Positions 24,001 to 45,000 are shown, counted from the whole stretch's first letter. The stretch: DNA of 59,090 bases, filler included, from Candidatus Omnitrophota bacterium (GCA_023140385.1; 3 parts of 3 records of this genome joined end to end with filler, not necessarily neighbours in it); one strand, 5' to 3'. Numbers: made by a program.

Positions 24001-27000
24001 CTTGTGATTGTCCATTATTTGACATTTTATAATTTTTATAACGGGAGGACGCAAGGCCCTCCCCTACGTTTTTATTGTATTTACCGAATATAATTTCTCT
24101 ATTTCTCGAACCGATGGTTATAAAATAATACCCATTATTCGCGTAATCATAATTTTTTAATCGGATTTGTTTTCTGGACATTAATTTTTGCATTTTATTT
24201 GTCTATAACGACTGATTTCACCTGCCCCGACGCTTCGGGGTCAGGTGGAATGATTTGTTAGCTTTTTCTGTTTCTTAAAATCTCTCAAACCTCGCACTGA
24301 TGCAACATCATTTAAGACAGTGTCTTGCCACCCTGATTTGACATCTTTCCTTGAATCGAACCTTTGTATGTATGGTTTGATGTCAAGCAAAGGTGTGCCA
24401 TCTAATATATCAAGATCTCTGACATAAAGAATATTATCTTCAATTCTATCCAACCGCACAAGACTCATCCCTAATTTATTGGGACGGTGTGGAGCGCGTG
24501 TAGCAAAAATACCATGTTCACGATCTGACAGATACGGCTTTAAACGTAAACACGTTTTCCGTGAATGATCGAAATAATAGAACAANNNNNNNNNNNNNNN
24601 NNNNNNNNNNNNNNNNNNNNNNNNNNNNNTTAATTAATTAANNNNNNNNNNNNNNNNNNNNNNNNNNNNNNNNNNNNNNNNNNNNATCGACTACCCATTC
24701 GGCTAATTCTGACATTGTAGCTTTCTGAGCACCTTCAAAATAAGGCTGATTTTTGTAAATTCCACACCGCGCCATACATGTTCCACACACTTTGACTGAT
24801 ACGCCCTTGGCAATTAAATCTTTTAATATTTGCGATAAATCTTGATCATATCCTTCTGGTGGATTACACACTTCACGTGCCATATCAACAGAATCATTCA
24901 TCAAGAATATTCTTACTTCTTGTTCCGTCTCCAGCAATTTTCCCGCAAGACGCAATCCATTCCATGTGACATCCGTGTTATCATAAGGTTGACGGTTGAA
25001 GATAATTAGTATTTTCATTATTTCCCCTTTTATTTATAGCTAACGTTGGCATCAGCGGCGTTTTCGCGCGGTGAAAATGTTCGCTGGATGAAATAGTTAT
25101 AGGTTTATTAAATTATCAATATCCTGTTCCCAATTAACCGGGTTATTGGCGATATATTCACGAATCGCGTCCAATGATCTGTCATTTCGTATAATATGGT
25201 CATGATAATTGCGCTGCCATATTTTTTTGCCTGGTGTATTTTGCGATTCGTTTATTTGTTTTGTTGTTTGATATTTGAAATACGCAATAATATTGCCTAT
25301 TGTAGGGGCGGGGTCATCCCGCCCGATTATTTTATTATTATCCGGGCGGGATGACCCCGCCCCTACAATATTTATTATTCCATGGATATGATTGGGCATT
25401 ATTGCATATTCATCAATTAATGCATGGCCATATTTTTCAAATATTTTTTGCCACCATAAATCAATCATATTTCCCACGGCATTTAATATCATTTGATCAT
25501 TTTTAATTGTGCCGAATAATTGTTGCCGATTTTCTGTGCAAATCGTTATGAAATATTGCGCCGGCGTTGAATAATTATGTTGGGGAATTCGATTTGTATT
25601 TCGGCGGGTATATGTTTTTGGCATTTTGTTTGATTTTATTATTTATTTTACCTAACATTTAACATGCAGAATACGTATTTTTTGGGTATTTAATAGCGTG
25701 TACATATAATACATCGCAAATGTACTATCTTCAAGCTTATTGCCTATGGTCATATTATTTGAGTTGTTAGTCTAATTTTTTGCCGGCATCAACGCCCGGT
25801 TTTATGGTGTAGATTTCTTTTAATTTAATCTCTACTACACCTTTGGGAATCGTTTCGGGTTTTTTTGTTTGTATGAATTTTTTGCCTTCTTCGTAAATTT
25901 CCCCTTTTGTATAGTAAGCGGCTTCTCCTTTAATCTTATATGCCTCTCCCGTTTCCGAATTCCAGAAAGAGATGCAAACGTTGCTGTTTTCCAGGAGGTT
26001 TTCTTTGCTCATCTTCATATAATTATCCACCAATATAATTGTTTCATCACCAACAATCTTTTTCCAAAATACAGGAACGACATTTGGATTTCCCTGCTTG
26101 TCTGCTGTGCCAAAAGTAATTAAAGGCTCTTTCTCGAACAAATCCTTCACTTTACCTGAAATTATCATATTAAACTCCCTTTCTATTAAATTTTAAAACT
26201 TTAAACAACGTCCCCTAAACTTAAAAGTAGTCACTGAATAAATCCGCGGTTTTTTCTTTAATAAAGGCAAGTGGTTTCAGCCTGGCGGCTGTTTGAGGAG
26301 AAGCGGTTTCTTTTATGAGGGCGTATTTTGCCAGGCCGAGGCAATTGGACCAAATGGGAGAGTTCAGGGCCTTGCTTATCTGGAAACCGCGCGGTGACCC
26401 CAGCCGGACAGGTAAAACAAAGGTTTTCTGCGCCACTTCTATCATTGAATCCAACAAGGCCGTCCCGCCCGTCAAAACAATTCCGCAGGGAGCGCTCTGA
26501 AGACAGTCCATCTCTTCCAACTTGGCTTCAACTCTGCTCAATATCTTATCCAGGCTGCGCTTAACAGCTTCATTTATTTCATTCTTATTGATAACTTTAA
26601 CGTTTCCGTTGGAGTCCTTCAAGACTACCTCTTCCACCGCCTCTTCACTGCCAACCAGGGCACAGCCATATCTTTTTTTTATCTCCTCCGCGTATGATGC
26701 GGAAACCTTCAGCCTCTTTGAAATGCTTTCGGTAATATCGTCTCCGCCCTTAGGAATCACAGCAAGTTTTTTCAGTTTTTCTTCGTGGAAAAAAGCTATC
26801 TCCGTCAGGCCGGCTCCAATATCTATCAAAACAACTCCTGTTTTCCTCTCCTCCTCTTCCAGGACAGAATAAAATGGCGGCAGGCCGGAGGTTACCATTT
26901 CCTTTATTTGATAACCGGCTTGATTAACGCTTCTTTTTAAATTTTTTATGTAGTTCGAAATTCCTGTTACAACCAACAGGTCAACTTCAATTTTTCTGGC

Positions 27001-42000: not shown

Positions 42001-45000
42001 GACTTGACCATTTTCAATGTGAAGGTATTAAAGTGCAAATTATCCTTCTCATCGTACAATGCCCTTTTCTTTCTAAAAACTTCCATTGGTATCCCTAATT
42101 CAGAGAATTCAAAATGCTTGGATGTGTCAATATAAACGCGAACGCTCTCTCTCATTTCCTTCACCCCCTTTTCTTAAAACTTATCGGGAGGGTCTATCAA
42201 CTCTTCGGCAATGTCTTCAAAAGAGCTCTGTGTATTTTTATAATACTCTTTCCAGACCCCCTCGTCCCATATTTCAAACCTGTTGGAAACACCGACAATT
42301 ATAACCTCTTTTTTAATCTGGGCATACTCCTTGAGATATTTGGGTATGAGAATCCTGCCCTGCTTATCGAGGGATGCTTCACAAGCTCCTGAAAAATAAA
42401 GACGGTTAAATTTTCGTGAATCTCTTTTGGTAAACGGTAGGGATCTAAATTTGTGCTCTTGCGCTTTCCATTCTTCTTCAACAAAAACAAAAAGGCATTT
42501 ATCTAACCCGCGGGTAACATATAACTTATCAATATAATTCTCTTTTGTCAGTAGGCGAAACTTGGCAGGAATAATAAGCCGCCCCTTGCGGTCAATTGTA
42601 TGCTTATACTCCCCATAGAACATTTGATATCCCCCACTTTACTCCACTACATACCACGAAGTATACCCTACACACCCTTTTATGTCAAGGATAAAATATA
42701 CTTTTTTTGTTTAAACACAATAAGTTGTGGAAAATAGAAAAAATGGCCAATATGTAGGGGAAACTAAAAAATGGGAAGCTTTCCTGATTATGATGCAGAG
42801 ATTATGAGGTGTGCTCGTCCACGGCCAATGTAGCCAATCTGTCCGCTTCTTTATTCAAATGCCGCTTTATATGAACAATCTTAACCTCATCTAAGGCATC
42901 TATCAGATGCCTGGCCTGAATATAGAGGGGTTTCAGATTATCGCTCTTGACCTTGTATTGACCGCTTAACTGCCTGGCTACAAGCTCGCTATCCGTTTTT
43001 ATGGTTATCGCCGCGGCTTTAAGAATAAAGGCTTCGGAAAGAGCAAGATTTATGGCGCTATACTCAGCCACATTATTACTTGCCTTACCGATATACTTGG
43101 AAATTCTCTTTATGCATCTTCCGTCATCGTCGTAAACTACTACACCAATACCGGCATGCCCGGGATTTCCCTGGCTGGCGCCGTCTACAAAAAAAATAAT
43201 TTTTTGGGAAGGGAGTGGCTTTATCAATTATTCCTCAATATAGAGTATGCGGGAACAGTTCTCGCAGGCAATAAGGTTTTTACCCAGCTTAACCTCGTGA
43301 ATTGACTGAGGGCGAAGATTCATAAAACAACCCTGACAAGCTGAATCTCTAACGGCAACTATAGCCCGCTGGCCTCTCTTGTTTTGAAGTATCTTTTCAT
43401 ACCTGCTAAGCACGGGTTTTTCTATGGTTGAGGCAATCTTACTTCTTTCGTCTTTTAAGCTTTCGTACTCCTTGTCAAGCTCAGCCATCTTATTGCTTAC
43501 CGCAACCACGCGCTCGTCCAAAAGTTTCTTCCTTTCCTTAAGGTCATTCTTTTTTTCTTCTATGGCGGCTTCCATTTTATCAATCTCATCCAGGATATTA
43601 AGAATCTCTTCCTCGACTAATGAGCTGTCCGCCCTGGTAGAACTTATCTCGTTTTCAAGCGCCCGATACTCATCATTTTTCTTTACCTGATAGAGCTGGC
43701 CCTGCAGCTTCTTTATCTGCGCCTCCTTGCTCTCCAACTCCACCTCTTTATCTTTCCCCTTAACCTGCATGCCCTTTTTCTCTTCTTTAAGCCCGTTTAT
43801 CTGACTTTGGACATCTTCATAAATCAGTTTTTCAGCGTCCACCTCTCGCGGCAATCTTATTTTTTCATCTTCAATTTCAATAATCTTAGAGTCGTAATTC
43901 TGAAGCTTTACCAGTTTTTTGATTTGCTCTTCCATAAATTTAAAACCCTTTTTTATAATCATTTTGGTGGGCGATGCAGGACTCGAACCTGCTACTTCCA
44001 CGATGTGAACGTGGCACTCTAACCAAATGAGCTAATCGCCCTCCTTCGCTAAAGCTACGGCGGGCAGGCCCGCTTTCACTATTAACTATTACGTAAACCC
44101 GCTTTCACTATCAACTATTACGTAAACCCGCCTGCTTCGCTGTTAGCTATGGCGGATAAATAGCTCCAAAGAATCGCTGGCCTGCCAGCCATAGCTCCAA
44201 AGGAGCGACGGCTGGTGGGCCCACCAGGACTTGAACCTGGGACCTACTGATTATGAGTCAGCCGCTCTAACCAACTGAGCTATGGGCCCGATAAGTAACC
44301 TTTCGTTATTATACAAAGATAATACGAAAAAGCAATAAAAAAATTCTTCTCCCCTTATTTGTCTTCGGGAGGATTGCTTATCATCTCGATGAACTTTTCC
44401 GGTAAGTCATAACCTAACTCAACAAGCCTGTCCGCGGATTGACGGGCCAGGCCGCTCTTGCCCTGCCGCATATAGAAAAGAGCCAGGTTGTAATGAGCAA
44501 GGGCGTAATCCGGCTTAAGCTTAATGGCCTCTTTAGAGGCAGCGACCGCCTTTTTAAGTTCGCCGGTCAAAGAATAAGCTATGGCCAGGTTATTATAACT
44601 ATTAACGTAAGTCTTATTTAATTCGATGGACTTCCTGAACGACACTATAGCTTTCTCATATCTGCCCAGTGAGTTATAGGCATTGCCCAGATTATAGTAG
44701 GCGAAGCTGTAGTCCGGTTTTAACTCTATAGCCCTCTTACAAGAAGCTATCGCCTCTTTATATCTGCCTCTTTGAGAATATTCATTACCCAGGGTGCTAT
44801 ATAACCTATGGCTTGAGGGGGCGCATCTCAGTGTTCTTTTATAAAAAGTAAGAGCATCTTTCCAGTAATCACATTGTTTCACAGTTAAACAACCGTAAAA
44901 AAATAACAGTCCGGTTATGACGACAGCCATTAAAACACCGCATCTTCTTTTTCTATAAAGACGCGTTAAAATCCACCCGCTAATTAAAAAGAAGCCCACA

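What a model noticed while it worked through the whole genome (the two positions that open the first line are those of the whole stretch)
25767..42623. Divisome without FtsZ but with FtsA: the dcw cluster ends at ftsQ-ftsA and no tubulin-fold gene exists
The division/cell-wall cluster mraZ-rsmH-ftsI-murE-murF-mraY-murD-ftsW-murG-murC-murB-ddl-ftsQ-ftsA is complete and contiguous, but ftsA is followed by an unrelated flavoprotein gene and a transposase, and no FtsZ/tubulin gene occurs anywhere; MinCDE, ZapA, SepF, ZipA and FtsE are absent too. The same holds for 8 of 8 genomes of the order and 149 of 151 sampled class members. I read it as FtsZ-independent fission in which the retained actin-like FtsA (with MreB, FtsK, FtsQ/B, FtsW/I) organises septal peptidoglycan synthesis. 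Unlike Chlamydiota and Planctomycetota, which lost ftsA together with ftsZ, this lineage keeps FtsA, giving a new model for what FtsA does without its canonical partner. [...]
Evidence so far: Gene table C54 g01391-g01406; g01391 FtsA (NCBIfam E 4e-75; 34% id to P. aeruginosa FtsA), next genes g01390 PNPOx_N and g01389 Y1_Tnp with 52 bp between ftsA and g01390. No Pfam Tubulin/FtsZ_C, MinC/D/E, ZapA, SepF, ZipA, FtsE rows. Six-frame: PF00091 0 of 8 in the order, TIGR00065 0 hits in this genome, PF00091 2 of 151 in the class, both in bins with 4-5% contamination on short contigs; controls ring in 13 of 14 model genomes. MreBCD-PBP2-RodA are on C9 (g00307-g00311), FtsK g00801, DivIC/FtsB g00126.
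(Added by a program. Inside this text positions count along the whole contig: they may not be those of the stretch shown here. "Call 12" and the like, gene names such as g00115 and contig names such as C1 are that model's own, and its searches are not shown. The text may have been shortened before it was handed on; [...] marks where a part breaks off. The agent that wrote the report below was given it as the finding of a first reader that could run no searches.)

Follow-up and report, generated by a model that had tools for sequence, protein, structure and literature searches.

The report
Cell-division gene cluster lacking ftsZ
This uncultured Omnitrophota bacterium, like every sampled member of its phylum, keeps a full cell-wall and division gene cluster ending in ftsA but has no ftsZ gene, so it must divide without the protein ring that nearly all bacteria use.

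Summary
The window carries mraZ-rsmH-ftsL-ftsI-murE-murF-mraY-murD-ftsW-murG-murC-murB-ddl-ftsQ-ftsA. No FtsZ or tubulin gene is detectable in the genome, in 8 of 8 genomes of the order, or as a true FtsZ in 401 sampled phylum genomes. Two of the 401 carry TubZ-like genes elsewhere; two weaker hits are false.

The caveat that ftsA lies 1.5 kb from a contig end is resolved. The preceding contig in the window continues the locus with about 230 bp missing. It carries proC-ileS-dksA-lspA-lgt-rluD, which follow ftsA directly in 8 of 18 long relatives' loci.

FtsA keeps its 1C insert, its nucleotide-binding glycines and its C-terminal membrane helix. It has lost an Arg/Glu pair that is invariant in FtsZ-bearing bacteria. 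In some families it is barely recognisable, whereas MreB is uniformly conserved (150 of 151).

FtsZ-independent, peptidoglycan-based division is well supported. That FtsA organises it is inferred; MreB is an equal candidate.

The pattern was already tabulated for three genomes in 2021 but never analysed. The one 'Omnitrophica' genome with FtsZ has since been moved to another phylum.

The parts
42174..42623 (-). mraZ, first gene of the dcw cluster
   Evidence: TIGR00242 154.3 bits, cut-off 98.35
41043..41927 (-). rsmH (mraW)
   Evidence: TIGR00006 331.9 bits, cut-off 154.3
   Evidence: TIGR02209 23.4 bits, below cut-off 42.45. Pfam DivIC 16.3 bits. Assigned mainly from its position between rsmH and ftsI.
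38934..40619 (-). ftsI, class B penicillin-binding protein
   Evidence: SpoVD/PBP2/FtsI-type models at 320-537 bits, all below their equivalog cut-offs. Position in the cluster supports the call.
28278..38929 (-). murE, murF, mraY, murD, ftsW, murG, murC, murB, ddl, contiguous
   Evidence: Bits (cut-off): murE 559 (373); murF 400 (288.6); mraY 373.1 (192.05); murD 405.7 (211.95); ftsW 414.6 (337.5); murG 239.1 (250.25, just under); murC 493.8 (335.1); murB 289.4 (259); ddl 373.6 (243).
27449..28258 (-). ftsQ
   Evidence: Pfam POTRA_1 27.7 bits (cut-off 23) and FtsQ_DivIB_C 30.8 bits (cut-off 21)
26221..27447 (-). ftsA, 408 aa, last gene of the dcw cluster
   Evidence: TIGR01174 249.8 bits, cut-off 175.85. 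Pfam FtsA 90.7 bits and SHS2_FTSA 59.8 bits at residues 82-161. E. coli FtsA 7q6d 144 bits over residues 5-376. Conserved C-terminal amphipathic tail ending D-Y-F.
26169..26220 (.). 52-bp spacer where ftsZ follows ftsA in other bacteria
   Evidence: Read from the sequence. ftsZ lies next to ftsA in 28 of 30 Gemmatimonadota control loci and 0 of 51 Omnitrophota loci.
21042..26168 (-). About 5 kb of lineage-specific inserted genes between ftsA and proC: PNPOx-like 25767-26168; REP-type Y1 transposase 25097-25624; DsrE-like 24687-25018 (cut by the contig end); artificial spacer 24586-24685; TrmO 24241-24585 (cut by the contig end); 106-aa ORF 23873-24193; DUF3352 protein 21627-23774; flavodoxin-like 21042-21605
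   Evidence: Pfam and NCBIfam. The contig join is inferred from a same-family genome where the DsrE-like gene is followed 12 bp later by TrmO; both contig ends align to that locus 228 bp apart.
14734..20906 (-). proC 20097-20906, ileS 17203-20094, dksA-like 16808-17203, lspA 16348-16806, lgt 15614-16360, rluD 14734-15633: the conserved neighbourhood that follows ftsA directly in relatives
   Evidence: Pfam. ftsA-(yggS)-proC directly downstream in 8 of 18 long Omnitrophota loci, 7 of them continuing to PNP-ileS.

Best explanation
ftsZ has really been lost. The loss is old, shared by the whole phylum Omnitrophota, and it left the rest of the division and cell-wall cluster and its downstream neighbourhood in place.

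The cell builds a septum of ordinary peptidoglycan with the retained late divisome: FtsQ, an FtsL-like protein, FtsW, FtsI and FtsK. There is no Z ring and none of the Z-ring accessories tested (MinD, ZapA, SepF, FtsE).

FtsA is no longer an FtsZ tether. It remains a membrane-bound actin-like protein that couples to the septal synthase through its 1C side. It may form curvature-sensing filaments, as described for E. coli FtsA double filaments, and so act like a second MreB.

Shown: the gene content, the synteny, and the retained and lost FtsA features.

Inferred: that division is septal and peptidoglycan-driven, that FtsA polymerises, and the division of labour between FtsA and MreB.

My odds: real ftsZ loss about 0.95; FtsZ-independent peptidoglycan-based fission about 0.8; FtsA rather than MreB as the main organiser about 0.4.
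For: (1) No FtsZ or tubulin match in the genome with four models or queries. None in 8 of 8 order genomes. No true FtsZ in 401 phylum genomes, 341 of them at least 90% complete, including the single-contig genomes G148, G154 and G361.

(2) The same search finds FtsZ at 171.8 bits in a fragmented Gemmatimonadota MAG. ftsZ sits beside ftsA in 28 of 30 Gemmatimonadota loci against 0 of 51 Omnitrophota loci.

(3) Synteny. A same-order relative has ftsA followed after 275 bp by proC-PNP-ileS-dksA-lspA-rluD. A closed genome has ftsA-yggS-proC-PNP-ileS. This arrangement is present in 8 of 18 long loci. In the window the same genes lie on the adjoining contig, and the join is about 230 bp, too short to hold ftsZ.

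(4) FtsA is under constraint. In 44 distinct sequences F408 is invariant, and Y407, D12, G204, G211, G327 (invariant) and G334 are at least 90% conserved. The tail ends [D/E]-Y-F in 43 of 44. Identity to a same-order relative is 50.6%, within the 46-64% range of six neighbouring genes.

(5) FtsA has changed where an FtsZ contact is expected. The columns of E. coli R300 and E303 are R in 30 of 30 and E in 30 of 30 Gemmatimonadota, and R/E in E. coli, Vibrio and S. aureus. In Omnitrophota they are R in 3 of 44 and E in 11 of 44.

(6) MreBCD and FtsK are present. A 2026 preprint reports the early cytoplasmic muropeptide steps (glmU, murA, murB, murC) and D-Ala-D-Ala supply in 176 of 176 complete Omnitrophota genomes, and glmS in 174 of 176 (passages read).

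(7) Nierhaus et al. 2022 (passages read) show that FtsA forms curved antiparallel double filaments that prefer negative Gaussian curvature, as MreB filaments do. This makes an FtsZ-free guiding role physically plausible.
Against: No imaging, localisation or biochemistry exists for any Omnitrophota division protein.

The link between R300/E303 and FtsZ binding rests on my recollection of the T. maritima FtsA-FtsZ peptide structure. I could not confirm it in any text I could read.

Those two columns are 2 of 38 that are at least 90% conserved in Gemmatimonadota and under 50% in Omnitrophota. Subdomain 2B as a whole is not more relaxed than the rest (conservation ratio 0.59 against about 0.56 overall).

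FtsA is poorly conserved across the phylum, with 180 of 401 genomes under the family cut-off. In one family it seems to have lost the glycine-rich phosphate-2 loop. MreB is uniformly conserved. Both points favour MreB as the essential filament.

Sequence searches cannot exclude a tubulin-fold protein with no detectable sequence similarity.
Confidence: 0.6

Rival explanations
1. Chlamydia-like scheme. MreB, with MreC/D and FtsK, organises a division ring of peptidoglycan. FtsA is a dispensable or slowly decaying accessory adaptor.
For: MreB is over its cut-off in 150 of 151 genomes at 482-533 bits; FtsA ranges from 28.8 to 328 bits, with 221 of 401 over its cut-off. MreBCD and FtsK are present in this genome. 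In many class members mreB lies about 11 kb downstream of ftsA on the same strand. Published work on Chlamydia implicates MreB in division without FtsZ, as cited and in a paper seen only as a search listing.
Against: A gene in the ftsA position beside ftsQ is kept even in the most divergent family, still with the membrane tail. In the window's order FtsA evolves no faster than its neighbours. Chlamydiota and most Planctomycetota lost ftsA altogether, so retention across a whole phylum argues for a function.
Confidence: 0.3
2. An unrecognised substitute, either a non-homologous cytoskeletal protein or an FtsZ diverged beyond sequence detection, forms the division scaffold and FtsA tethers it.
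For: FtsA keeps its membrane anchor and is universally positioned after ftsQ. In one family an unknown 639-642-aa helical protein overlaps the stop of the ftsA-like gene by 4 bp. TubZ-like proteins exist in 2 of 401 genomes.
Against: No gene is conserved downstream of ftsA across the phylum; neighbours include yggS-proC, glycine-cleavage genes, a T2SSE ATPase and MORN-repeat proteins. No protein in this genome has an FtsZ-like C-terminal peptide above chance, with 21 hits against 15.25 expected and none convincing. The searches detect tubulin relatives as remote as TubZ, yet find nothing here.
Confidence: 0.08
3. Artefact. ftsZ exists but is missed because of incomplete assembly, binning or search failure.
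For: The genome is a 57-contig MAG at 92.69% completeness, and ftsA lies 1.5 kb from a contig end. Many MAG contigs break just after ftsA: 48 bp after it in L064 and 211 bp after it in G007.
Against: 0 of 401 genomes have a true FtsZ, three single-contig genomes included. The contig gap is about 230 bp, inside a dsrE-like/trmO gene pair. Controls ring in 13 of 14 model genomes and in a fragmented MAG of another phylum.
Confidence: 0.02

Closest known systems
Chlamydiota division without FtsZ (MreB/RodZ/FtsK-directed peptidoglycan ring)
   Same: A PVC-related lineage with no ftsZ. Peptidoglycan synthesis genes, MreB and FtsK are retained. Cells are small and probably host-dependent.
   Different: Chlamydiota lack ftsA. 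Here ftsA and a contiguous mraZ-to-ftsA cluster are kept. RodZ was not tested here.
Planctomycetota division without FtsZ (budding or fission)
   Same: ftsZ is lost at the phylum root within the PVC group.
   Different: Planctomycetota lost ftsB and mostly ftsA, and their dcw cluster is eroded or fragmented; several orders lost most mur genes. Omnitrophota keep the full cluster. [quoted passage not shown]
Canonical FtsZ-FtsA divisome (E. coli, B. subtilis type)
   Same: The same dcw gene order up to ftsQ-ftsA. FtsA has the 1C insert and the C-terminal membrane helix. FtsW/FtsI, FtsQ, an FtsL-like protein and FtsK are present.
   Different: No ftsZ, and no MinD, ZapA, SepF or FtsE found. The FtsA Arg/Glu pair that is invariant in FtsZ-bearing species is not conserved.
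Elongasome (MreB double filaments guiding RodA-PBP2)
   Same: The proposed working principle: a membrane-bound, curvature-sensing actin-like filament steers a SEDS-bPBP synthase without a tubulin scaffold.
   Different: Here the actin-like protein would be FtsA acting with FtsW-FtsI at a septum. This is inferred, not shown.

Membership tests
dcw (division and cell wall) cluster | Collinear mraZ-rsmH-ftsL-ftsI-mur/mraY/ftsW block ending in ftsQ-ftsA | tested here: met
   15 consecutive minus-strand genes, window 26221-42623
dcw (division and cell wall) cluster | ftsZ immediately after ftsA | tested here: not met
   A 52-bp spacer and then a PNPOx-like gene. 0 of 51 Omnitrophota loci have ftsZ beside ftsA, against 28 of 30 control loci.
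FtsA (TIGR01174; Pfam PF14450 + PF02491) | Whole-protein score over the curated cut-off | tested here: met
   249.8 bits against 175.85
FtsA (TIGR01174; Pfam PF14450 + PF02491) | SHS2 (1C) insert in place of actin subdomain 1B | tested here: met
   PF02491 59.8 bits at residues 82-161
FtsA (TIGR01174; Pfam PF14450 + PF02491) | C-terminal amphipathic membrane-targeting helix | tested here: met
   Conserved tail: F408 invariant, Y407 at least 90% conserved, and 43 of 44 sequences end [D/E]-Y-F. Membrane binding itself was not tested.
FtsA (TIGR01174; Pfam PF14450 + PF02491) | Actin-fold nucleotide-binding motifs | tested here: met
   D12, G204, G211, G327 and G334 are conserved in at least 90% of 44 sequences. 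The window protein has Ser where the phosphate-1 Gly is usual. ATP binding was not tested.
FtsA (TIGR01174; Pfam PF14450 + PF02491) | Binding site for the FtsZ C-terminal peptide in subdomain 2B | tested here: inconclusive
   The columns of E. coli R300/E303 are invariant in 30 of 30 control sequences but R in 3 of 44 and E in 11 of 44 here. That these residues contact FtsZ is recalled, not confirmed from any text I read. A one-residue alignment shift in the window protein cannot be excluded.
FtsZ / tubulin superfamily | PF00091 GTPase domain or a TIGR00065 match | tested here: not met
   PF00091 gave 0 at E<=10. The best TIGR00065 match is 14.2 bits in a dehydrogenase-like ORF. PF13809 gave 0. 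The best phmmer E-value is 0.29.
FtsZ-less PVC division (Chlamydia type) | No ftsZ, with MreB and FtsK retained | tested here: met
FtsZ-less PVC division (Chlamydia type) | ftsA also absent; RodZ partner present | tested here: not met
   ftsA is present. RodZ was not searched.
Z-ring accessory systems (Min, ZapA, SepF, FtsEX) | MinD, ZapA, SepF or FtsE over the family cut-off | tested here: not met
   MinD best 59.1 bits against 212.9. ZapA 0 in this genome and 0 of 151 in the phylum sample. SepF 12.9 bits. The best FtsE hit is LolD beside LolC/E. MinC, MinE and ZipA were not searched.

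The most novel reading that the evidence does not exclude
Omnitrophota are a whole phylum of walled, diderm bacteria in which the divisome runs like an elongasome. 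FtsA, freed from FtsZ, has become a self-sufficient, curvature-sensing membrane filament that positions and steers FtsW-FtsI. This would show that the Z ring is dispensable for peptidoglycan-based fission and reveal FtsA's FtsZ-independent core function.
Probability: 0.3. Interest if true: 0.8.

Novelty: new variant of a known kind. Interest (0 to 1): 0.6.

Why it matters
FtsZ-less division is known from Chlamydiota and Planctomycetota, but both also lost FtsA. Omnitrophota offer the complementary case: a full peptidoglycan and late-divisome set plus FtsA, without FtsZ or its regulators. That separates what FtsA does for the septal synthase from what it does for the Z ring.

It also bears on the proposed kinship of divisome and elongasome.

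It corrects the current literature as well. A 2025 review calls planctomycetes the only free-living FtsZ-less bacteria. A 2025 study groups Omnitrophota with the phyla that have conserved dcw genes. The two main Omnitrophota genomics papers do not mention FtsZ or FtsA.

Testing is hampered because the phylum is uncultured apart from one enrichment. Heterologous and in vitro work on FtsA is feasible.

Tried and rejected
(1) Complex prediction on two copies of the window FtsA with a 44-row alignment returned 'no answer' (score 0.00, mark 0.42). This is neither support nor evidence against self-assembly.

(2) Subdomain-level relaxation test on 44 Omnitrophota and 30 Gemmatimonadota FtsA. No subdomain stands out: conservation ratios are 0.53-0.66, with 2B at 0.59. 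The subdomain borders are recalled approximations.

(3) Scan for a protein with an FtsZ-like C-terminal peptide. It gave 21 hits against 15.25 expected from random internal windows. The two best look like a strand of a small folded protein and a non-coding frame.

(4) Search for a gene conserved downstream of ftsA that might replace ftsZ. None was found across lineages.

(5) The two weak PF00091 hits as possible ftsZ remnants. They are a CN-hydrolase and a deaminase.

(6) Attempts to find a text naming the FtsA residues that contact FtsZ. Two look-ups hit papers that are not held. Passages in four other papers did not name them. Three searches found nothing usable.

(7) Supplements of the 2025 iScience paper hold no Omnitrophota rows. 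Its Figure 5 is not held, so I cannot tell whether its phrase 'highly conserved' includes ftsZ.

(9) No exact end-overlap exists between the two contigs. The join rests on a relative's locus instead.

Full report
WHAT THE WINDOW IS. The 59,090-base window is not one molecule. It is contig C48 of the genome (whole, window 1-24585), an artificial spacer, contig C54 (window 24686-52822), a second spacer, and the start of C55. The spacers are runs of N around an all-frame stop linker. The genome is a MAG of 1,495,458 bp in 57 contigs, 92.69% complete and 0.16% contaminated. Its nearest named relative, with FtsA 93% identical, is titled 'Candidatus Omnitrophota bacterium'.

THE OBSERVATION. Most score over the curated NCBIfam cut-offs. 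The exceptions are the ftsL-like gene, ftsI, murG (just under) and ftsQ; ftsQ passes both of its Pfam domains. ftsA scores 249.8 bits against a cut-off of 175.85. Its stop is followed by 52 bp, a PNPOx-like gene and a REP-type Y1 transposase.

IS ftsZ REALLY ABSENT?
- Six-frame searches of the genome gave no PF00091 match even at E<=10, while the control rang in 13 of 14 model genomes. PF13809 gave none. The only TIGR00065 match is 14.2 bits, in an ORF that reads as a malate/lactate-dehydrogenase-like Rossmann protein.
- My own phmmer --max run used E. coli FtsZ and two TubZ-like proteins against all 5731 ORFs of 60 aa or more. Nothing scored better than E 0.29. With the same database size, E. 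coli FtsZ still detects the TubZ-likes at 1e-4 and 0.04.
- The order gave 0 of 8.
- A sample of 401 genomes of the phylum, 341 of them at least 90% complete and at most 5% contaminated, gave 4 matches at E<=0.01.
- Two of those four exceed the Pfam cut-off. Both carry the TubZ-like C-terminal domain and score only 50-54 bits on the FtsZ equivalog (cut-off 295). They sit between unrelated genes; one is on a 114-kb contig.
- The other two are a carbon-nitrogen hydrolase and a cytidine deaminase.
- So 0 of 401 genomes have a bona fide FtsZ, and the set includes three single-contig genomes.
- As a positive control, the same search finds FtsZ at 171.8 bits in a highly fragmented Gemmatimonadota MAG. 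ftsZ lies directly beside ftsA in 28 of 30 Gemmatimonadota ftsA loci against 0 of 51 Omnitrophota loci.

THE CONTIG-END CAVEAT. In relatives with long contigs, ftsQ-ftsA is followed by (yggS)-proC-(a PNP-family phosphorylase)-ileS-dksA-like-lspA-rluD. Examples are a same-order genome, where proC starts 275 bp after ftsA, and a closed genome. ProC lies directly downstream in 8 of 18 loci with at least 6 kb of downstream sequence.

The window's first contig carries exactly these genes, in the same orientation as the dcw cluster: proC 20097-20906, ileS, dksA-like, lspA, lgt and rluD 14734-15633.

The start of C54 is a DsrE-like gene lacking its last few codons. The end of C48 is a trmO gene lacking its first codons, about 60. 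In a same-family genome the two genes are adjacent, 12 bp apart, and the two contig ends align to that locus 228 bp apart. The two contigs therefore abut, and the missing stretch is too short for ftsZ.

Between ftsA and proC this genome holds an insertion of about 5 kb: PNPOx-like, transposase, dsrE-like, trmO, a 106-aa ORF, a DUF3352 protein and a flavodoxin-like protein. From memory, the yggS...ileS-lspA-rluD block is the neighbourhood that follows ftsZ in Gram-positive model bacteria. If so, ftsZ was excised cleanly from an old arrangement. That comparison is recalled, not tested here.

WHAT ELSE IS MISSING OR KEPT.
- Not found in this genome: MinD (best 59.1 bits against 212.9), ZapA, SepF (12.9 bits) and FtsE. 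The best FtsE hit is LolD next to a LolC/E permease.
- ZapA is also absent from 151 of 151 sampled phylum genomes. That model rings in only 4 of 14 controls at the threshold used.
- Present: MreB (517.6 bits) with MreC and MreD, and a 729-aa FtsK.
- Not searched by me: MinC, MinE, ZipA, RodZ, PBP2, RodA and genome-wide FtsB.

WHAT FtsA LOOKS LIKE WITHOUT FtsZ. The window protein has the FtsA-specific SHS2 (1C) insert at residues 82-161 and aligns with E. coli FtsA over residues 5-376.

I aligned 44 distinct Omnitrophota FtsA sequences.
- The actin-fold glycines and the phosphate-1 aspartate are at least 90% conserved.
- The C-terminal amphipathic tail is kept: F408 is invariant and 43 of 44 sequences end [D/E]-Y-F. 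The membrane anchor is therefore retained.
- Against a same-order relative, FtsA is 50.6% identical, within the range of six neighbouring genes (46-64%). In this lineage it is under ordinary purifying selection.

Across the phylum the picture differs. Only 221 of 401 genomes pass the FtsA cut-off and the best score is 328 bits. All 41 Gemmatimonadota pass, with full-length genes at 320-449 bits.

I inspected five genomes, from four families, whose best hits were only about 1e-17. Those best hits are MreB or weak FtsA-like matches. Four of the five still have an FtsA-like gene right after ftsQ, scoring 28.8-67 bits. In one of them the tail is intact but the glycine-rich phosphate-2 loop is not evident.

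MreB is over its cut-off in 150 of 151 genomes at 482-533 bits, plus one partial gene at 366.5 bits. The divergence of FtsA is therefore gene-specific and not a general property of the phylum.

A targeted look gave one suggestive result. The columns of E. coli R300 and E303, on a helix of subdomain 2B, are R in 30 of 30 and E in 30 of 30 Gemmatimonadota. They are also R and E in E. coli, Vibrio and S. aureus. In Omnitrophota they are R in 3 of 44, with Glu the commonest residue, and E in 11 of 44. I recall these as the salt-bridge partners of the FtsZ C-terminal peptide in the T. maritima complex, but I could not confirm this from any readable text. They are also 2 of 38 columns with the same contrast, and subdomain 2B as a whole is not specially relaxed. 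I rate the test inconclusive but in the expected direction.

HOW IT MOST LIKELY WORKS. Shown: the gene set, the synteny and the FtsA features above. Inferred: division proceeds by septal peptidoglycan synthesis through FtsW-FtsI with FtsQ, the FtsL-like protein and FtsK, with no Z ring.

Two actin-like proteins could supply spatial order. FtsA could act as curved antiparallel double filaments that sense curvature, as shown for E. coli and Vibrio FtsA (passages read). MreB could act as proposed for Chlamydia. Universal retention, position, the 1C insert and the membrane tail speak for FtsA. FtsA's strong divergence and MreB's uniform conservation speak for MreB. I put FtsA-led at about 0.4, MreB-led at about 0.3 to 0.35, and an unknown scaffold at about 0.1. 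No gene is conserved downstream of ftsA, and no FtsZ-tail mimic was found that would point to a replacement.

WHAT IS ALREADY KNOWN.
- Rivas-Marin et al. [quoted passage not shown]
- Pende et al. [quoted passage not shown]
- Their Supplementary Data lists five Omnitrophica genomes. FtsZ is present only in OLB16, FtsA is present in four, and three are FtsA-positive and FtsZ-negative.
- NCBI taxonomy now places OLB16 in Candidatus Hinthialibacterota. That removes the only exception.
- Henriques et al. 2025 group Omnitrophota with phyla whose dcw genes are 'highly conserved' (passages read). Their supplements hold no Omnitrophota rows, and the figure is not held.
- Seymour et al. 2023 and a 2026 preprint with 176 complete genomes never mention FtsZ or FtsA (term counts of 0).
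- Searches that found no analysis of FtsA without FtsZ in this phylum.

The bare pattern is therefore in print as table rows. The phylum-wide scale, the closed-genome and synteny evidence, and the state of FtsA are not.

VERDICT. This is a new variant of a known kind of system: FtsZ-less division in the PVC group, here with the full cluster and FtsA kept. Interest is about 0.6.

Noticed in passing
window 25300-25368, inside the transposase ORF 25097-25624: A G+C-rich perfect inverted repeat of about 26 bp per arm, with a 17-nt loop, lies inside the open reading frame of the REP-type Y1 transposase. The frame stays open through it. It looks like a REP or hairpin element inserted in, or recognised by, the transposase. 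Read by eye from the sequence.
   Followed up: no
window 24241-25044; L107 913-1862; L106: The dsrE-like/trmO pair is 87-94% identical in DNA to genomes of another genus, whose FtsA is only 40% identical in protein. There it sits at a different locus, between mnmG (named by my own reading of the translation, no family search) and an ORF pair that I took, also from the translations alone, for a toxin-antitoxin pair. This suggests recent horizontal movement of the cassette within the family.
   Followed up: partly
L001 1012-2295 (-); L002 1318-2517 (+): Two of 401 Omnitrophota genomes encode TubZ-like tubulin-family proteins (PF00091 45-49 bits plus the TubZ-like C-terminal domain). They lie outside any division context, one of them on a 114-kb contig.
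   Followed up: partly
L125 4124-7200 (-); L124 4138-7100 (-): In one family of the class, ftsQ is followed by an FtsA-like gene that is barely recognisable. It scores 28.8-40.5 bits on the FtsA model, keeps the C-terminal tail, and shows no evident glycine-rich phosphate-2 loop. Its stop overlaps by 4 bp the start of a conserved 639-642-aa helical protein with no Pfam match, followed by an HD-domain (HD_5, HD-GYP-like) protein.
   Followed up: partly
e.g. G154:C1 1234694-1247451; also G108, G128, G056, G034, G110, G068, G192, G072, G162, G019: In many members of the class, mreB lies about 11 kb downstream of ftsA on the same strand, so the division and elongation clusters are loosely linked. 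In the window's genome mreBCD are on another contig.
   Followed up: no
L064 (contig ends 48 bp after ftsA); G007:C5 (211 bp after); several loci listed: Many MAG contigs of the phylum break within a few hundred bases downstream of ftsA. This fits a strain-variable insertion hotspot at the place where ftsZ used to be.
   Followed up: partly
window 7953-14570 (-): Downstream of rluD lie a ParA-like ATPase, a 615-aa PilM-PilN fusion, PilO-like, a secretin and a T2SS-F/PilC-like protein: a type IV pilus-type cluster.
   Followed up: no
window 42802-44001 (-): Directly upstream of mraZ lie an RNase HI-like gene and a zinc-ribbon coiled-coil protein that matches the CdsZ model weakly (93.4 bits, cut-off 275).
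   Followed up: no
window 3-4835 (-): A very long open frame of at least 1611 aa runs off the end of contig C48. It was not analysed.
   Followed up: no
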